Source: Candidatus Moraniibacteriota bacterium (lineage in GTDB: Bacteria > Patescibacteriota > Minisyncoccia > Moranbacterales > DUUL01). From it: 55,525 nt of DNA. Below the pieces are notes generated by a model. That model was given only the letters and a program-made list of their open reading frames with translations. It was not told the origin of the DNA and searched no databases. Of this stretch, positions 51,469 to 54,687 are shown piece by piece. The translations under genes and the position numbers were made by a program. Positions within the stretch are counted from its first letter, which is position 1. The number at the start of each line of letters is the position of its first letter. The stretch is taken from positions 1 to 55,525 of the forward strand of contig JBFHIG010000008.1 of assembly GCA_041596615.1 (NCBI GenBank), written 5' to 3'.

Positions 51469-52128
51469 TTATCTTATTCCCTTTTCTTCCTTATTTTTAA
51501 TAAGCGCACTTTCAAGGTTGCCCCTAAAAGTTTCTTTATAAAAAGCGAGTAGCTCGGCTCTTTTTTCTCCGGCCTGCTTAAATACTTCGTCTAGACTGCC
51601 TGGGTCATCAGCTCTATCTCTTTCGAATAACAAGAGTTGGTCTATATGATCTTTATATAATCCTTCAATCTCATCCATTCTTTTTTCGAAATCTCCTAAA
51701 TTTACTAGTAATTCATCAACATCTGTTCCTTCAAGTTTCAACTGAGAAACAGTGCTGGTGGCAATATTCCTAGCGACTCTTAATCGCATTCGGTTTCTTT
51801 CAAGTGCACTTTTTGCTTTATTAATTCTTTCAATCTTTTCTTCTTCAGTTTGTATCACTCCTTCTGTTTTTTCTCTCTGGCCAAAGCTTTCTTTCCCCTG
51901 CCCCGGATTTCCTCCCATGGGACCCCCCTCACCATTCTGCCTTCTCTCTTCCATGAAAGCTTGTTTCTCTTCTTCGCTCATGTTTTCGATAGCTTCTATT
52001 TCTTCTGGTGATGGCATTGCCTTAGTAACAACAAAAGATGCTCCGTAGATTCCAAAAACCAAAAACAATACGGCCAAAAAATACAATTTCCTAATTTTTT
52101 TAAAAAAAATTTTTTTCTGAATTTTCAT
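51469..52128 (-). CDS. Secreted or membrane-anchored coiled-coil hypothetical protein
   Basis: Signal/TM segment, Gly-rich linker, helical C-terminus; ATG at 52128 preferred. Confidence 0.65.
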   Translation of the reverse strand: MKIQKKIFFKKIRKLYFLAVLFLVFGIYGASFVVTKAMPSPEEIEAIENMSEEEKQAFMEERRQNGEGGPMGGNPGQGKESFGQREKTEGVIQTEEEKIERINKAKSALERNRMRLRVARNIATSTVSQLKLEGTDVDELLVNLGDFEKRMDEIEGLYKDHIDQLLLFERDRADDPGSLDEVFKQAGEKRAELLAFYKETFRGNLESALIKNKEEKGIR

Positions 52129-52213
52129 TTTTATTTCATTACATAATTCTGTTTTTATTTTAGCATACATTTTAAAAAAGTTTAATCGCTAAAATCATTC
52201 GAGCTTTGGATGC

Positions 52214-53254: not shown

Positions 53255-53348
53255 TTTATCTTTTACTATTTACAAAACAAATTAAAACTGCTACATTTTC
53301 TTAGGTAGCAACTTGTTGTTATTTTTATTTTTCACAAGAATCTAGAAC

Positions 53349-53466
53349 AAGAAAGATCTTAAGAAAAGGTTGATTGAAAGTTTATTGTAATTTAAGGAGA
53401 GATGGCAGAGTGGTCGAATGCGTCAGTCTTGAAAACTGAAGTGCTTTCACGAGTACCGAGGGTTCG
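53349..53466 (+). repeat. 118-bp direct repeat, copy 1 (copy 2 at 53743-53860)
   Basis: 117/118 identical; the single difference is G53387 versus A53781. Confidence 0.95.
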
Positions 53467-53511
53467 CCCCGGCATTCGCGGGGCGTCCAGCGCATGCTGG
53501 ACGAATCCATC
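53396..53511 (+). pseudogene. Disrupted tRNA-Ser(TGA) copy
   Basis: First 71 nt identical to the intact tRNA, then 37 extra nt in the T-loop, then AATCCATC; 3' acceptor strand absent. Confidence 0.85.
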
Positions 53512-53784
53512 AAACATCTAACCGAAAAGGAAATATTTTATGTATATATTCTTCTGAGCAAAAAAGACGGGAAATTCTATATTGGAAAAACTAGCGATCT
53601 GAAAAGACGCATTGCTGAACACAAGAACGGCAAAGTCAAGTCAACAAAACATAGAACACCCTTAAAGCTTATTTGCTACGAAGCATATTTATGTAAGGAA
53701 GAGGCGTCACGAAGAGAACTTTTTCTCAAAACGAGTGACGGAAAGAAAGATCTTAAGAAAAGGTTGATTGAAAGTTTATTATAA
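53494..53784 (+). CDS. Small GIY-YIG nuclease family protein
   Basis: FYVYIL...FYIG.T.DLKRRI.EH..G...ST.HR.P..L..YE...A.RRE.FLK; exact start uncertain. Confidence 0.9.
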   Translation: MLDESIKHLTEKEIFYVYILLSKKDGKFYIGKTSDLKRRIAEHKNGKVKSTKHRTPLKLICYEAYLCKEEASRRELFLKTSDGKKDLKKRLIESLL

Positions 53785-53860
53785 TTTAAGGAGAGATGGC
53801 AGAGTGGTCGAATGCGTCAGTCTTGAAAACTGAAGTGCTTTCACGAGTACCGAGGGTTCG
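53743..53860 (+). repeat. 118-bp direct repeat, copy 2
   Basis: Covers the last 14 codons (including stop) of the GIY-YIG gene, a 5-nt spacer and tRNA-Ser up to GGTTCG. Confidence 0.95.
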
Positions 53861-53876
53861 AATCCCTCTCTCTCCG
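53790..53876 (+). tRNA. tRNA-Ser(TGA)
   Basis: GGAGAGA/TCTCTCC acceptor, TCAGT-CTTGAAA-ACTGA anticodon arm, long variable arm, GAGGG-TTCGAAT-CCCTC, G discriminator; full CCA not encoded. Confidence 0.97.
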
Positions 53877-53903
53877 CCGTGAAATGTGAAATTTGAAATA
53901 TTA

Positions 53904-54024: not shown

Positions 54025-54207
54025 GTTGATTTAATCTATTTTTACAAAACATAATTTGACTTGAATCATCATTCATGTTATTCTGTAATACTACATTCAG
54101 AGATTGTGTCTTTTTATAAGGCATCTCTCCGAAAAAGTGGTAAATAGTTCGTTTTTTAACCGGGTCTCAGTGTGAGACATAACCTTTTTCCTTTAGAGGA
54201 GTTCATC

Positions 54208-54687
54208 ATGGCATATTTTTTGTTCCCCGCAGAAGAGTCTGCTCCTGCAGACAAAAAAAATCCTGTAGCAATCTCCGCTTATAAAGGAGAAAAATTTTTC
54301 GCAAAACACATCCCTCAGGACCAAAAAGACCTGGGCTCCTTAGTTACGGTACACATCGTCAAAAAGGGTTTTATGTTAACCCCCAAACTTGATTTGGTGA
54401 TGAGTGTCACTGGCTTACATAAAGGAAACAAAGGTTGTTGCAGGATTCTCTTTTTAAGAGAAGACCGCAAAAAAAGTGGTGAAAGGCTAAGTTTTGTCGG
54501 AGAAGAAGCTTCGCATTTGACTCCCTGGGTCGACGCATCCAAAGGAAAAATTTTAAAAATTTCCACTGGCATAAAAAATGCTCTTATCTATAGCGACGAA
54601 CTTCTGGTAGGAAAATCCCCATTCGACACCATTGGTGTATTTCTGAAAAAATCTTTTCTACCATTTCAAAGCACATCAAGTGTATAG
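54208..54687 (+). CDS. Hypothetical protein
   Basis: GAGGAG RBS 6 nt before ATG 54208; followed by terminator. Confidence 0.55.
   Translation: MAYFLFPAEESAPADKKNPVAISAYKGEKFFAKHIPQDQKDLGSLVTVHIVKKGFMLTPKLDLVMSVTGLHKGNKGCCRILFLREDRKKSGERLSFVGEEASHLTPWVDASKGKILKISTGIKNALIYSDELLVGKSPFDTIGVFLKKSFLPFQSTSSV

What the first reader, a model, noticed from the sequence alone, without database searches (positions are those of the whole stretch)
53349..53876. GIY-YIG gene bracketed by direct repeats made of its own 3' end plus the 5' part of tRNA-Ser: candidate minimal tRNA-targeting mobile element
Seen: 118-bp direct repeats 394 bp apart. Each contains the codons for KKDLKKRLIESLL-stop, TTTAA, and tRNA-Ser up to GGTTCG. 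The only difference (TTG versus TTA) is synonymous in the nuclease frame. The upstream tRNA is broken and the downstream one intact. Established: integrative elements usually duplicate the tRNA 3' end and encode an integrase; here the 5' part is duplicated and the only gene is a ~90-aa nuclease. Inference: a 394-bp unit that inserts at or amplifies through the T-loop and regenerates the tRNA. The orphan nuclease tail upstream implies either an earlier round of insertion/excision or use of target DNA as the nuclease C-terminus.
Basis: partly seen in the sequence, partly recalled or inferred. Interest (0 to 1): 0.85.

Follow-up and report, generated by a model that had tools for sequence, protein, structure and literature searches.

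The report
Nuclease gene cassette nested in tRNA-Ser
A tiny selfish-looking nuclease gene sits inside a serine tRNA gene of an ultra-small (CPR) bacterium and keeps the host alive by carrying a fresh copy of the tRNA part it displaced; the same design recurs at many tRNA genes in many related genomes and I found no description of it.

Summary
There are two 118-nt direct repeats, 117/118 identical and 394 nt apart. Each holds the last 13 codons plus stop of a GIY-YIG gene, then TTTAA, then the first 71 nt of tRNA-Ser(TGA), ending at GGTTCG.

Three same-genus genomes carry the same locus empty, so about 455 nt is an insertion.

It is not a one-off. The design recurs: a tRNA 5' pseudo-copy with GC-rich hairpins inserted in a loop, then a ~85-96-aa GIY-YIG ORF on the same strand, then an intact copy of the same tRNA. 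I saw it at 3 of 4 tRNA-Ser genes of this genome. ORF-less versions sit at Tyr, Thr, Phe and Gln. It appears in most of 46 related loci from other Patescibacteria, including tandem arrays and a mirror-image 3' form.

The protein is closest to UPF0213/Slx1-type nucleases. Copy number in sister genomes runs from 0 to 16.

Best reading: a mobile, self-healing nuclease cassette that spreads by break-induced recombination, using the tRNA as homology. Mobility is supported by comparison. The cutting site and mechanism are inferred. Five literature searches found no description.

The parts
53269..53297 (+). Promoter-like site (TTTACA, 17 nt, TACATT with TG) of the resident tRNA-Ser gene, upstream of the broken copy. 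It probably drives the fragment, the nuclease ORF and the intact tRNA as one transcript (inferred).
   Evidence: Most of the region aligns in the empty alleles of G001-G003.
53335..53348 (+). 14 nt (AAGAATCTAGAACA) of unknown origin between the conserved flank (...TTTTTCAC) and the repeat. This is the left junction of the inserted DNA.
   Evidence: G001 reads ...TTTTTTCAC directly followed by GGAGAGATGG (tRNA +1). The window diverges after CAC.
53349..53390 (+). Orphan nuclease tail: 13 codons plus stop, the first part of repeat copy 1. Read as the remnant of an earlier cassette unit.
   Evidence: Analogous remnants at G000:C4 and L090.
53396..53466 (+). Pseudo-copy of tRNA-Ser(TGA), nucleotides 1-71, ending at GGTTCG in the T-loop.
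   Evidence: 71-nt exact copy from tRNA position 1; Rfam tRNA 30.1 bits. ARAGORN does not call it.
53467..53503 (.). Two-hairpin palindromic module: CCCCGGCATTCGCGGGG, CG, TCCAGCGCATGCTGGA, CG. It is inserted between TTCG and AATCC of the T-loop.
   Evidence: DNA fold -15.7 kcal/mol, z -2.45. Homologous modules with different but self-complementary stems at many loci.
53504..53511 (+). AATCCATC: the 3' half of a T-loop plus a T-stem remnant after the module. The intact copy reads AATCCCTC.
53494..53784 (+). GIY-YIG nuclease ORF, 96 aa from an ATG in the loop of hairpin 2. The conserved core starts at 53533, where the relatives' ATG is ATA here.
53743..53860 (+). Repeat copy 2: the true ORF tail, TTTAA, and the first 71 nt of the intact tRNA.
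53790..53878 (+). Intact tRNA-Ser(TGA), the functional gene regenerated downstream of the cassette.
   Evidence: (65.2 bits). The 25-nt spacing to tRNA-Leu is the same as in the empty allele of G001.

Best explanation
The region is a young member of a family of very small selfish cassettes that live inside tRNA genes of Patescibacteria (CPR). The genome's relatives are titled Candidatus Moranbacteria.

The common design, 5' to 3', is:
1. the original tRNA gene, now a pseudo-copy, with one or two GC-rich hairpins inserted in a loop and cut off a few nucleotides further on;
2. a ~85-96-aa GIY-YIG nuclease gene of the UPF0213/Slx1-like branch, on the tRNA strand;
3. a complete copy of the same tRNA, contiguous with the normal downstream flank.

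The host therefore loses nothing. Where an intron or intein is spliced out, this insertion is neutralised by a duplicate of the displaced tRNA part.

In the window, the hairpin module sits in the T-loop palindrome as TT-CG-[hp1]-CG-[hp2]-CG-AA. The unit (hairpins, ORF, TTTAA, tRNA 1-71) is 394 nt. About 1.3 units are present. The extra 0.3 (the orphan tail) is what remains of an earlier unit of a tandem array.

Inferred mechanism (not shown):
- The nuclease makes a break at or next to the palindromic loop/hairpin structure.
- Repair by recombination copies the cassette.
- The tRNA sequence on both sides serves as portable homology, so the cassette can home into the orthologous tRNA of another cell or species, often replacing the resident tRNA.
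- The cassette can also expand or contract as tandem units, as T6 SegB does for its tRNA-segB unit.
- Transcription probably comes from the resident tRNA promoter upstream of the fragment.
For: Shown by comparison:

(a) The insertion is polymorphic. G001, G002 and G003 (same genus) have the NYN gene, a spacer, tRNA-Ser(TGA), 25 nt (measured in G001), and tRNA-Leu(TAG), with no nuclease, tail or fragment. The tRNA-Ser(GCT) cassette on contig C5 is likewise absent from G001-G003.

(b) The design recurs in the same genome. Of 41 tRNA genes, 7 have an upstream copy of their own 5' end followed by GC-rich hairpins:
- Ser-TGA, with a GIY ORF
- Ser-GCT, with a GIY ORF 53% identical (aligned)
- Ser-CGA, with an internally deleted ORF that keeps the tail KDLKKRLVESLL
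- Tyr, Thr-TGT, Phe and Gln-CTG, without an ORF

(c) It recurs elsewhere. Among 18 loci with a relative of the protein:
- 13 of 18 have a same-strand tRNA downstream as part of the structure (11 within 45 nt).
- 2 of 18 have the mirror form.
- 3 of 18 have no tRNA.
- L036-L038 are near-identical and count as one lineage.

Among 28 further loci from the same family:
- 10 of 28 have a same-strand tRNA within 114 nt downstream. All 10 have the pseudo-copy with hairpins.
- One more, L090, is a two-unit array.
- I did not search the other 17 for fragments.

(d) Tandem arrays exist: L048, with three tRNA 5' copies and two ORFs, unit 402 nt; L090, whose second ORF is internally deleted; and L071.

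(e) The module behaves as a discrete DNA insertion in TTCGAA. It is flanked by TTCG and CGAA at pattern-independent loci. In L113 it sits in the anticodon loop of tRNA-Ser(CGA), where the anticodon creates TTCGAA. In one module family it occurs in both orientations: L073 is the reverse complement of L074, L080 and L081. Stems differ between loci but stay self-complementary in 23 of 28 distinct pattern hits.

(f) There are signs of horizontal replacement. Pseudo and intact copies often differ. In L073 the fragment has acceptor GGAGAGG, while the intact gene has GGTGGGA with a matching 3' strand. The same kind of difference is seen in L033, L041, L070, L072, L074 and L081.

(g) The gene behaves like a selfish family. 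It ranges from 0 copies (7 of 27 family genomes) to 16 copies in ~1-Mb genomes, and several copies have internal stops. The closest relative of the window's protein (76% identity) sits at tRNA-Tyr, not tRNA-Ser.

(h) The protein has Pfam GIY-YIG at 63.6 bits. Y18, Y29, G31, R39, H43 and E75 are invariant in 10 aligned members. The best solved relatives are UPF0213 BH0048 (5e-15) and SLX1 (3e-4).

(i) A precedent exists. SegB, a GIY-YIG homing endonuclease in the tRNA cluster of T4/T6, cuts in tRNA genes (PMC2330249, abstract). It drives recombination-dependent tandem amplification of a 718-bp tRNA-Tyr plus segB unit (PMC13096335, passages read).
Against: No cleavage, transcript or transfer was observed. 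All of this is inference from static genomes, most of them metagenome bins.

- A 96-aa protein with only the catalytic domain has no obvious way to recognise a long site. Known homing GIY-YIG enzymes carry a separate DNA-binding domain.
- The intact tRNA next to the cassette has the same T-arm as the empty alleles. A simple T-loop cutter would therefore cut its own host.
- TTCGAA occurs 468 times in the genome and in the T-loops of 10 of 41 tRNAs, so it cannot be the whole target.
- The canonical start codon is ATA in this copy, so this nuclease may be poorly made.
- About 17 of the 28 family loci are not next to a tRNA.
- The D-loop-type hairpin module also occurs, without any ORF, upstream of 23S and 5S rRNA, nrdR and mraZ in relatives. 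It also occurs in G004, a genome with no match to the nuclease. Hairpins and nuclease are therefore separable.
- How a cassette acquires the 5' part of a new tRNA species (Ser versus Tyr within 76% protein identity) is unexplained.
- The tree is from ~85 residues, and support values were not shown.
Confidence: 0.6

Rival explanations
1. The hairpin module is the real mobile agent. In this reading it is a small palindromic, MITE/REP-like DNA that inserts into TTCGAA and other loop sequences. The GIY-YIG protein is either its trans-acting structure-specific nuclease or a passenger. Pseudo-tRNA copies collect hairpins because insertions into essential copies are lethal.
For: Modules occur without ORFs: the 3'-type fragments L070, L072, L074, L075, L080 and L081. 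Four ORF-less cases are in this genome. The D-type module occurs 7 times in G004, which has no nuclease match, and lies upstream of rRNA, nrdR and mraZ. CG flanks both hairpins, as a 2-nt target duplication would. Both orientations occur. The nearest solved relatives after UPF0213 are Slx1 structure-specific endonucleases.
Against: The hairpins always lie within about 5-12 nt of where the pseudo-copy is cut off and the ORF region begins. Hairpin insertion and truncation are therefore linked, not independent. In the window and its closest relative L033 the hairpin sequences are also similar, suggesting they travel together. ORF-less cases can be decayed cassettes: deleted ORFs are seen at G000:C4 and in L090.
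Confidence: 0.2
2. The nuclease is a host gene of tRNA operons, with an RNA- or DNA-repair role. The fragments are then by-products of ordinary recombination or horizontal replacement of tRNA genes, with no nuclease-driven mobility.
For: UPF0213 proteins are widespread and of unknown function. Dunin-Horkawicz et al. [quoted passage not shown] The ORF is always on the tRNA strand and apparently co-transcribed. The target site is intact in the host's own tRNA.
Against: Copy number runs from 0 to 16 among genomes of one family, and 7 of 27 have none. Pseudogenes and internal deletions occur. Tandem arrays exist. Two congeners have no match at all and the third only distant ones. The same architecture is rebuilt at at least nine tRNA identities (Ser, Tyr, Gln, Glu, Met, Lys, Trp and Cys with an ORF; Leu, and Thr and Phe in this genome, only without one).
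Confidence: 0.12
3. These are scars of integrase-mediated integrative elements (phage or ICE) that targeted the tRNA and were later deleted. The repeats would then be att sites.
For: The T-loop and anticodon loop are the classical crossover sublocations of tRNA-targeting integrases (my recollection of Williams 2002, not read here). An archaeal case has a tRNA 5' fragment 1.8 kb upstream of the intact gene, with a recombinase gene between them (PMC3293823, abstract read).
Against: No integrase or other gene lies between the repeats. The whole insert is about 455 nt, and its only Pfam hits are GIY-YIG and the related T5orf172. The locus is otherwise collinear with the empty alleles. Dozens of independent loci have the same 300-450-nt content. 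No close relative turned up in IMG/VR or the phage collection.
Confidence: 0.04
4. This is a one-off tandem duplication or an assembly artefact.
For: The repeat is nearly perfect and the genome is a 31-contig bin.
Against: Contigs of two runs bridge three of the four junctions, and the repeat unitig has about twice the flanking depth. The same architecture appears in many unrelated assemblies, including contigs of 0.77 and 1.27 Mb.
Confidence: 0.02

Closest known systems
SegB of phages T4/T6, a free-standing GIY-YIG homing endonuclease in the tRNA gene cluster
   Same: It is a GIY-YIG nuclease gene embedded among tRNA genes. It cuts within tRNA gene sequence (PMC2330249, abstract). It drives recombination-dependent tandem amplification of a unit made of a tRNA gene plus the (truncated) nuclease gene, with microhomology between the tRNA 5' end and the gene's 3' end (PMC13096335, passages read). 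The window's A-B-A arrangement and the arrays in L048 and L090 look like the same kind of product.
   Different: SegB is a phage protein. From memory it is more than twice as long and has a DNA-binding part. Its unit holds a whole tRNA and lies between genes. Here the host is cellular, the protein is 96 aa of catalytic domain only, the cassette lies inside a tRNA gene, a hairpin module marks the break, and a pseudo-copy is left behind.
UPF0213 proteins (BH0048, EF2693) and Slx1 structure-specific endonucleases
   Same: They are the best sequence matches among solved structures: 1zg2 at 5e-15, 1ywl at 2e-11, SLX1 at 3e-4. Size and domain content match UPF0213.
   Different: I know of no mobile or tRNA-nested context reported for UPF0213. 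Slx1 has a C-terminal zinc-finger domain and works with Slx4 (recalled). Neither is present here.
Homing endonuclease genes in introns and inteins (for example I-TevI)
   Same: Same logic: a nuclease gene occupies a highly conserved essential gene and is made harmless to the host. Presence/absence polymorphism and horizontal spread are also shared.
   Different: Harmlessness here comes from a DNA duplicate of the displaced gene part, not from RNA or protein splicing. There is no ribozyme (no Rfam match beyond tRNA). The match to the group I intron endonuclease model is only weak: 27.4 bits against a cut-off of 56.
Integrase-encoding elements that integrate into tRNA genes, including the Caldiarchaeum tRNA-Thr element (PMC3293823)
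   Same: They target the tRNA gene, regenerate an intact tRNA from an element-borne copy, and leave a displaced fragment as a direct repeat.
   Different: Those carry a recombinase, are kilobases long, and usually duplicate the 3' part. Here there is no recombinase, the insert is about 0.4 kb, and in the window the 5' part is duplicated. Both polarities exist in the family.
REP/MITE-type palindromic repeats
   Same: The hairpin modules are short, GC-rich, self-complementary, multi-copy, and can occur without a gene.
   Different: There is no RAYT/HUH transposase. The modules are inserted in a defined palindromic site inside tRNA loops and are linked to a GIY-YIG gene.

Membership tests
GIY-YIG nuclease superfamily (Pfam PF01541) | Sequence match above the curated cut-off | tested here: met
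   63.6 bits against a cut-off of 22.6, residues 15-84.
GIY-YIG nuclease superfamily (Pfam PF01541) | Catalytic-motif residues (Tyr of GIY, Tyr-x-Gly of YIG, Arg, His, Glu) conserved | tested here: met
   Y18, Y29, G31, R39, H43 and E75 are invariant in 10 aligned cassette proteins. That these residues are the catalytic set is recalled, not tested.
GIY-YIG nuclease superfamily (Pfam PF01541) | GIY-YIG fold and nuclease activity | not testable with these tools
UPF0213 / Slx1-like branch | Closest to UPF0213/Slx1 rather than to UvrC, I-TevI or restriction-enzyme branches | tested here: met
   PDB profile search: UPF0213 at 5e-15 and 2e-11, SLX1 at 3e-4 to 1e-2, I-TevI at 0.087.
UPF0213 / Slx1-like branch | Slx1-type C-terminal zinc-finger domain | tested here: not met
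   The protein is 96 aa and Pfam finds only the GIY-YIG domain. It is UPF0213-like, not a full Slx1.
Free-standing homing endonuclease gene | Gene present or absent at an otherwise conserved locus in close relatives | tested here: met
   Empty alleles in G001-G003. The Ser-GCT locus is also empty in them.
Free-standing homing endonuclease gene | The enzyme cleaves the allele that lacks it, near the insertion point | not testable with these tools
   No assay is possible. The host's own intact tRNA keeps the same T-arm as the empty alleles, which argues against a simple T-loop cutter.
Free-standing homing endonuclease gene | Separate DNA-binding domain giving a long recognition site | tested here: not met
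   Only the catalytic domain is found in 96 aa.
Free-standing homing endonuclease gene | Co-conversion of flanking sequence on transfer | tested here: inconclusive
   Intact and pseudo tRNA copies differ coherently in L073 and others, as expected if the donor tRNA comes along. No phylogenetic test was done.
Integrase-type tRNA-integrating element | Encodes a tyrosine or serine recombinase | tested here: not met
   The only ORF with Pfam hits between the repeats matches GIY-YIG (plus the related T5orf172). The flanks are collinear with the empty alleles.
IS200/IS605-type hairpin-ended transposon | HUH (Y1) transposase and subterminal hairpins at both ends | tested here: not met
   There is no such gene, and the hairpins lie on one side only.
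SegB-type tRNA-nuclease amplification unit | Head-to-tail units made of a nuclease gene plus tRNA sequence | tested here: met
   The window holds 1.3 units of 394 nt. L048 has 2 units of 402 nt. L090 has 2 units.
SegB-type tRNA-nuclease amplification unit | Amplification depends on the nuclease and on homologous recombination | not testable with these tools
   This needs genetics.

The most novel reading that the evidence does not exclude
This is a new class of minimal mobile element. A catalytic-domain-only, Slx1-like GIY-YIG nuclease works together with a palindromic two-hairpin 'landing pad'. The pair targets the palindromic arms and loops of tRNA genes (TTCGAA in the T-loop, or wherever the sequence occurs). 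It heals the essential target by templated partial gene duplication instead of splicing. In doing so it drives frequent horizontal replacement and pseudo-copy littering of tRNA genes across the Candidate Phyla Radiation.
Probability: 0.3. Interest if true: 0.9.

Novelty: new variant of a known kind. Interest (0 to 1): 0.78.

Why it matters
If the reading holds, it adds a third way for a selfish nuclease gene to occupy an essential, conserved gene without killing the host. Intron and intein splicing are the two known ways. The third is to carry a DNA replacement of the displaced part.

It would also give the widespread but functionless UPF0213 family a first biological context.

It would explain why tRNA loci of ultra-small CPR genomes are littered with tRNA fragments and GC-rich hairpins, which confuse tRNA annotation.

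It suggests that tRNA genes in these organisms are horizontally replaced at appreciable rates.

The system is tiny (about 300-400 bp, one 85-96-aa protein, one 37-nt module) and therefore easy to test in vitro. A structure- or palindrome-directed nuclease that promotes local copy-in could be of practical interest.

Tried and rejected
Rfam: cmscan of the window region and of five other loci at permissive thresholds found only tRNA-related matches. No ribozyme, intron or other family covers the hairpins.

Chance or one-off duplication: rejected by recurrence.

Simple fixed-length target-site duplication by a transposase: rejected. The duplicated length runs from 10-14 nt (D-loop cases), through about 30 nt imperfect (Ser-GCT) and 36 nt (Trp), to 47-71 nt (T-loop cases). 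It always spans from about the tRNA start to the break.

'Peel-and-paste' between two TTCG sites carrying the previous host's tRNA 5' part: considered. It predicts chimeric tRNAs. L073 contradicts it, because the intact tRNA is internally coherent and differs from the fragment.

RNA-level (intron-like) role of the hairpins: unlikely. The module is near-symmetric, occurs in both orientations, and the upstream copy lacks its 3' acceptor strand.

Immunity by target variation: not supported. The T-arm of the occupied allele is identical to that of the empty alleles.

Phage vector: no close relative in IMG/VR (0 confirmed of 17 candidate stretches). One distant hit (38.6% identity) appeared in 50,697 phage records.

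Expression: no RNA holder was listed among the public runs, so nothing can be said about transcription.

Deleted or circular forms: no joint was reported in the contigs of four runs. Contigs drop rare variants, so this says little.

Literature: five full-text searches returned no paper describing GIY-YIG cassettes nested in bacterial tRNA genes, or tRNA-associated UPF0213 genes. Subscription-only papers are not covered, and supplementary files were not consulted.

Defence-system libraries: only weak PADLOC matches (E about 3e-4). These were not pursued.

Tools not available: the search of earlier findings, structure prediction, complex prediction. As a result there is no fold comparison and no test of dimerisation.
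Full report
OBSERVATION

The repeat is real. The repeat finder gives 53349-53466 and 53743-53860: 118 nt, one mismatch, spacing 394.

Each copy is 42 nt coding KKDLKKRLIESLL-stop, then TTTAA, then the first 71 nt of tRNA-Ser(TGA), ending in GGGTTCG. The mismatch (53387 G, 53781 A) is synonymous.

Only the downstream copy is a complete tRNA: ARAGORN 53790-53878 and Rfam 65.2 bits. tRNA-Leu(TAG) follows 25 nt later.

Between the copies lies a 96-aa ORF (53494-53784) with a clear GIY-YIG domain.

Contigs from two public runs bridge the flank/repeat-1, repeat-1/unique and unique/repeat-2 junctions. In run X1 the repeat forms its own unitig at about twice the flanking depth. Misassembly is therefore unlikely, although those runs may be the source sample.

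Right after GGTTCG come two GC-rich hairpins: CCCCGgcattcgCGGGG, CG, TCCAGCgcatGCTGGA, CG (53467-53503). Then comes AATCCATC, where the intact gene has AATCCCTC.

The T-loop palindrome TTCGAA is therefore split as TT-CG-[hairpin]-CG-[hairpin]-CG-AA. The pseudo-copy continues through the T-stem remnant before the ORF region starts.

The ATG of the listed ORF lies in the loop of hairpin 2. The codon aligned with the ATG of all nine aligned relatives is ATA at 53533. Expression of this particular copy is therefore uncertain.

IT IS AN INSERTION

Three genomes of the same genus have the NYN-domain gene, about 95 nt of conserved spacer, tRNA-Ser(TGA) and tRNA-Leu(TAG), with nothing in between.

G001 reads ...TTTTTTCAC|GGAGAGATGG. 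The window reads ...TTTTTCAC|AAGAATCTAGAACA + tail + TTTAA + tRNA 1-71 + hairpins + ORF + TTTAA|GGAGAGATGG. That is about 455 extra nucleotides.

A promoter-like site (53269-53297) lies in the conserved spacer, upstream of the broken copy.

IT IS A FAMILY

This genome (1.3 Mb, 31 contigs, 35% GC, 41 tRNAs) belongs to the Patescibacteria. Its relatives are titled Candidatus Moranbacteria.

Three of its four tRNA-Ser genes carry a cassette:
- Ser-TGA, in the window.
- Ser-GCT on contig C5. It has a 13-nt 5' fragment, two different hairpins, and an 85-aa GIY-YIG ORF 53% identical over the aligned residues, followed by the intact tRNA. The insert is absent from G001-G003 and is bounded by an imperfect ~30-nt duplication that supplies the stop codon.
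- Ser-CGA on contig C4. It has a 14-nt fragment, the same hairpins, and an ORF reduced to its first codons plus a tail, KDLKKRLVESLL, almost identical to the window's.

Tyr, Thr-TGT, Phe and Gln-CTG have a 10-12-nt copy of their own 5' end, followed by GC-rich hairpins and 40-60 nt, but no ORF.

A 12-mer matching tRNA position 1 within 150 nt upstream is expected at about 1e-5 per gene (my estimate). Seven of 41 is far beyond chance.

OTHER GENOMES

Of 18 loci encoding a relative (L036-L038 are one lineage):
- 13 have a same-strand tRNA downstream as part of the structure (Tyr, Ser x4 anticodons, Gln, Lys, Trp).
- 2 (L035, L045) have the mirror arrangement: intact tRNA, ORF, then GGTTCG-hairpins-CGAATCC and the tRNA 3' end.
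- 3 have no tRNA.

By inspection, 12 of the 18 have a two-hairpin module in a T-loop context: L033-L041, L044, L045 and L048.

In 27 genomes of the same family the gene count runs from 0 (7 genomes, including two of three congeners) to 16. Several copies have internal stops.

Of 28 loci fetched from those genomes, 10 have a same-strand tRNA within 114 nt downstream. All 10 show a pseudo-copy with hairpins:
- in the T-loop: L091, L095
- in the anticodon loop: L101 and L117 (Glu); L113 (Ser-CGA)
- in the D-arm/D-loop region: L102, L103, L109, L111
- between ORF and tRNA: L108

L090 is a two-unit tandem array whose second ORF is internally deleted. I did not examine the remaining 17 for fragments.

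A pattern for the T-loop module hit 21 places in 17 of 401 genomes sampled across the phylum, against 4 hits for the reversed control. Sixteen of the 21, in 12 genomes, are genuine two-hairpin modules. Many of these are ORF-less 3' fragments lying just after an intact tRNA (Ser, Leu, Met).

THE MODULE

Across 28 distinct pattern hits, 23 fold as two hairpins. Their stems differ in sequence but remain self-complementary.

Pattern-independent loci show the same TTCG...CGAA flanks.

In L113 the same kind of module sits in the anticodon loop of tRNA-Ser(CGA), where the anticodon creates TTCGAA. This points to the sequence, rather than the T-loop as such, as the target.

The L073 module is the reverse complement of those in L074, L080 and L081. 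The module is therefore a DNA-level, near-symmetric insertion.

TTCGAA alone cannot be the whole determinant. The genome has 468 such sites, and only 10 of 41 tRNAs have it in the T-loop.

A different module, CCAGCCCAAGGCTGG TCCGCCTnGGGCGGA, marks the D-loop cases here. In relatives it also occurs without any tRNA fragment or nuclease gene, upstream of rRNA genes, nrdR and mraZ.

HORIZONTAL TURNOVER

Pseudo and intact copies range from identical (window, L039, L040, L048, L091) to clearly different.

In L073 the fragment has acceptor GGAGAGG. The intact gene has GGTGGGA with a matching 3' strand. Similar differences occur in L033, L041, L070, L072, L074 and L081.

This fits transfer of the cassette together with a whole donor tRNA, using the tRNA itself as homology and leaving the resident copy as the fragment.

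The window protein's nearest relative (76% identity, same C-terminal tail) sits at tRNA-Tyr. Ser and Tyr cassettes are intermixed in a rough tree, while tRNA-less copies group apart (short alignment, support not shown).

THE PROTEIN

It has Pfam GIY-YIG. Y, Y-x-G, R, H and E are invariant.

The best solved relatives are UPF0213 BH0048 and EF2693, then Slx1. I-TevI is marginal.

NCBIfam gives only a sub-threshold group I intron endonuclease match. PHROGs gives 'homing endonuclease' families at E 5e-7.

There is no DNA-binding domain.

HOW IT PROBABLY WORKS

Shown:
- It is an insertion.
- It recurs with one architecture at many tRNAs.
- It forms arrays and decays.
- It varies in copy number like a selfish gene.

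Inferred:
- The nuclease makes a break at the palindromic loop/hairpin structure.
- Recombinational repair copies the cassette.
- The tRNA halves act as built-in homology arms.
- Unequal recombination between the repeated tRNA parts makes and collapses arrays.

The documented behaviour of SegB supports the plausibility of this mechanism. SegB cuts in tRNA genes (PMC2330249, abstract) and drives recombination-dependent tandem amplification of a tRNA-Tyr/segB unit (PMC13096335).

The window's orphan tail is then the remnant of an earlier unit. L090 and G000:C4 show how ORFs are deleted while the tail stays.

The tail contains promoter-like hexamers, including TATAAT at 53780-53785, just before the tRNA. 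This may explain why tails persist, but that is speculative.

Unexplained:
- how a cassette acquires the 5' part of a new tRNA species;
- why the host's own intact T-loop is spared;
- what the hairpins do.

NOVELTY

Five full-text searches found no description.

The closest known systems are SegB-type free-standing homing endonucleases and integrase-type tRNA integrants. This differs from both in four ways:
- catalytic-domain-only size;
- position inside the tRNA gene;
- the hairpin module;
- healing by partial duplication.

I rate it a new variant of a known kind. There is a real chance (about 0.3) that the nuclease-plus-hairpin mechanism is new in kind.

LIMITS

- The evidence is all comparative and mostly from metagenome bins. 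Some record titles (Methanoregula, Gammaproteobacteria) probably reflect mis-binned contigs.
- No RNA data were available.

Noticed in passing
G000 contigs C2:114935-115330, C4:48920-49006 and C11:1400-1480 (loci L028, L029, L030): Four more tRNA genes of this genome (Tyr, Thr-TGT, Phe, Gln-CTG) are preceded by a 10-12-nt copy of their own 5' end, plus GC-rich hairpins, with no ORF. Thr and Phe share the motif CAGGGTCCGAG. They may be decayed cassettes or a non-autonomous form.
   Followed up: partly
L059-L068 (G004, G006, G025); in G000 at C4:46244, C5:37776, C2:115291: A highly conserved 30-nt two-hairpin motif, CCAGCCCAAGGCTGG TCCGCCTnGGGCGGA, is usually flanked by AAATTT/AAAATTT. It occurs upstream of 23S and 5S rRNA, nrdR and mraZ in relatives. 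It was not found in the three same-genus genomes searched (G001-G003), and occurs 7 times in a genome without the nuclease. Its function is unknown.
   Followed up: partly
L032:231-266 (G000:C5:37630-37665): A roughly 36-nt perfect-palindrome-like repeat (tgcatctatagag...ctctatagatgca) recurs on contigs C1, C3, C12 and C14 of this genome and in G001, G003, G007 and G008 at 86-100% identity. It is a separate REP/MITE-like repeat.
   Followed up: no
G000:C5:82120-82195 (minus strand): ARAGORN reports a tRNA of undetermined identity with a four-base anticodon (ttca). It could be an eight-membered anticodon loop, a frameshift-suppressor-like tRNA, or a mis-call.
   Followed up: no
window 53533-53542: The codon aligned with the ATG start of all nine aligned relatives is ATA. 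A well-spaced ATG after a Shine-Dalgarno-like AAGGA (53540) is out of frame and stops after 5 codons. The ORF stays open only because of an upstream ATG inside hairpin 2.
   Followed up: partly
L007 (G000:C6:52092-52202, minus strand) and L005 (G000:C23:10883-11122): There are two further GIY-YIG copies in this genome with no tRNA within about 1.5 kb (the fetched loci). One is a 44-aa fragment. The other is an intact ~84-aa gene just upstream of a short (about 27-codon) ORF.
   Followed up: no
L069:500-700 (G347:C4) and L090:2100-2220 (G015:C18): Some tRNA 3' fragments carry several nested hairpin insertions: in the T-loop, and again between the T-stem and the acceptor strand. No intact tRNA was called within 900 nt in L069.
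   Followed up: no
window 54172-54687 and 51469-52170 (minus strand): ORFs of 171 aa and 233 aa flank the locus and have no Pfam match.
   Followed up: no
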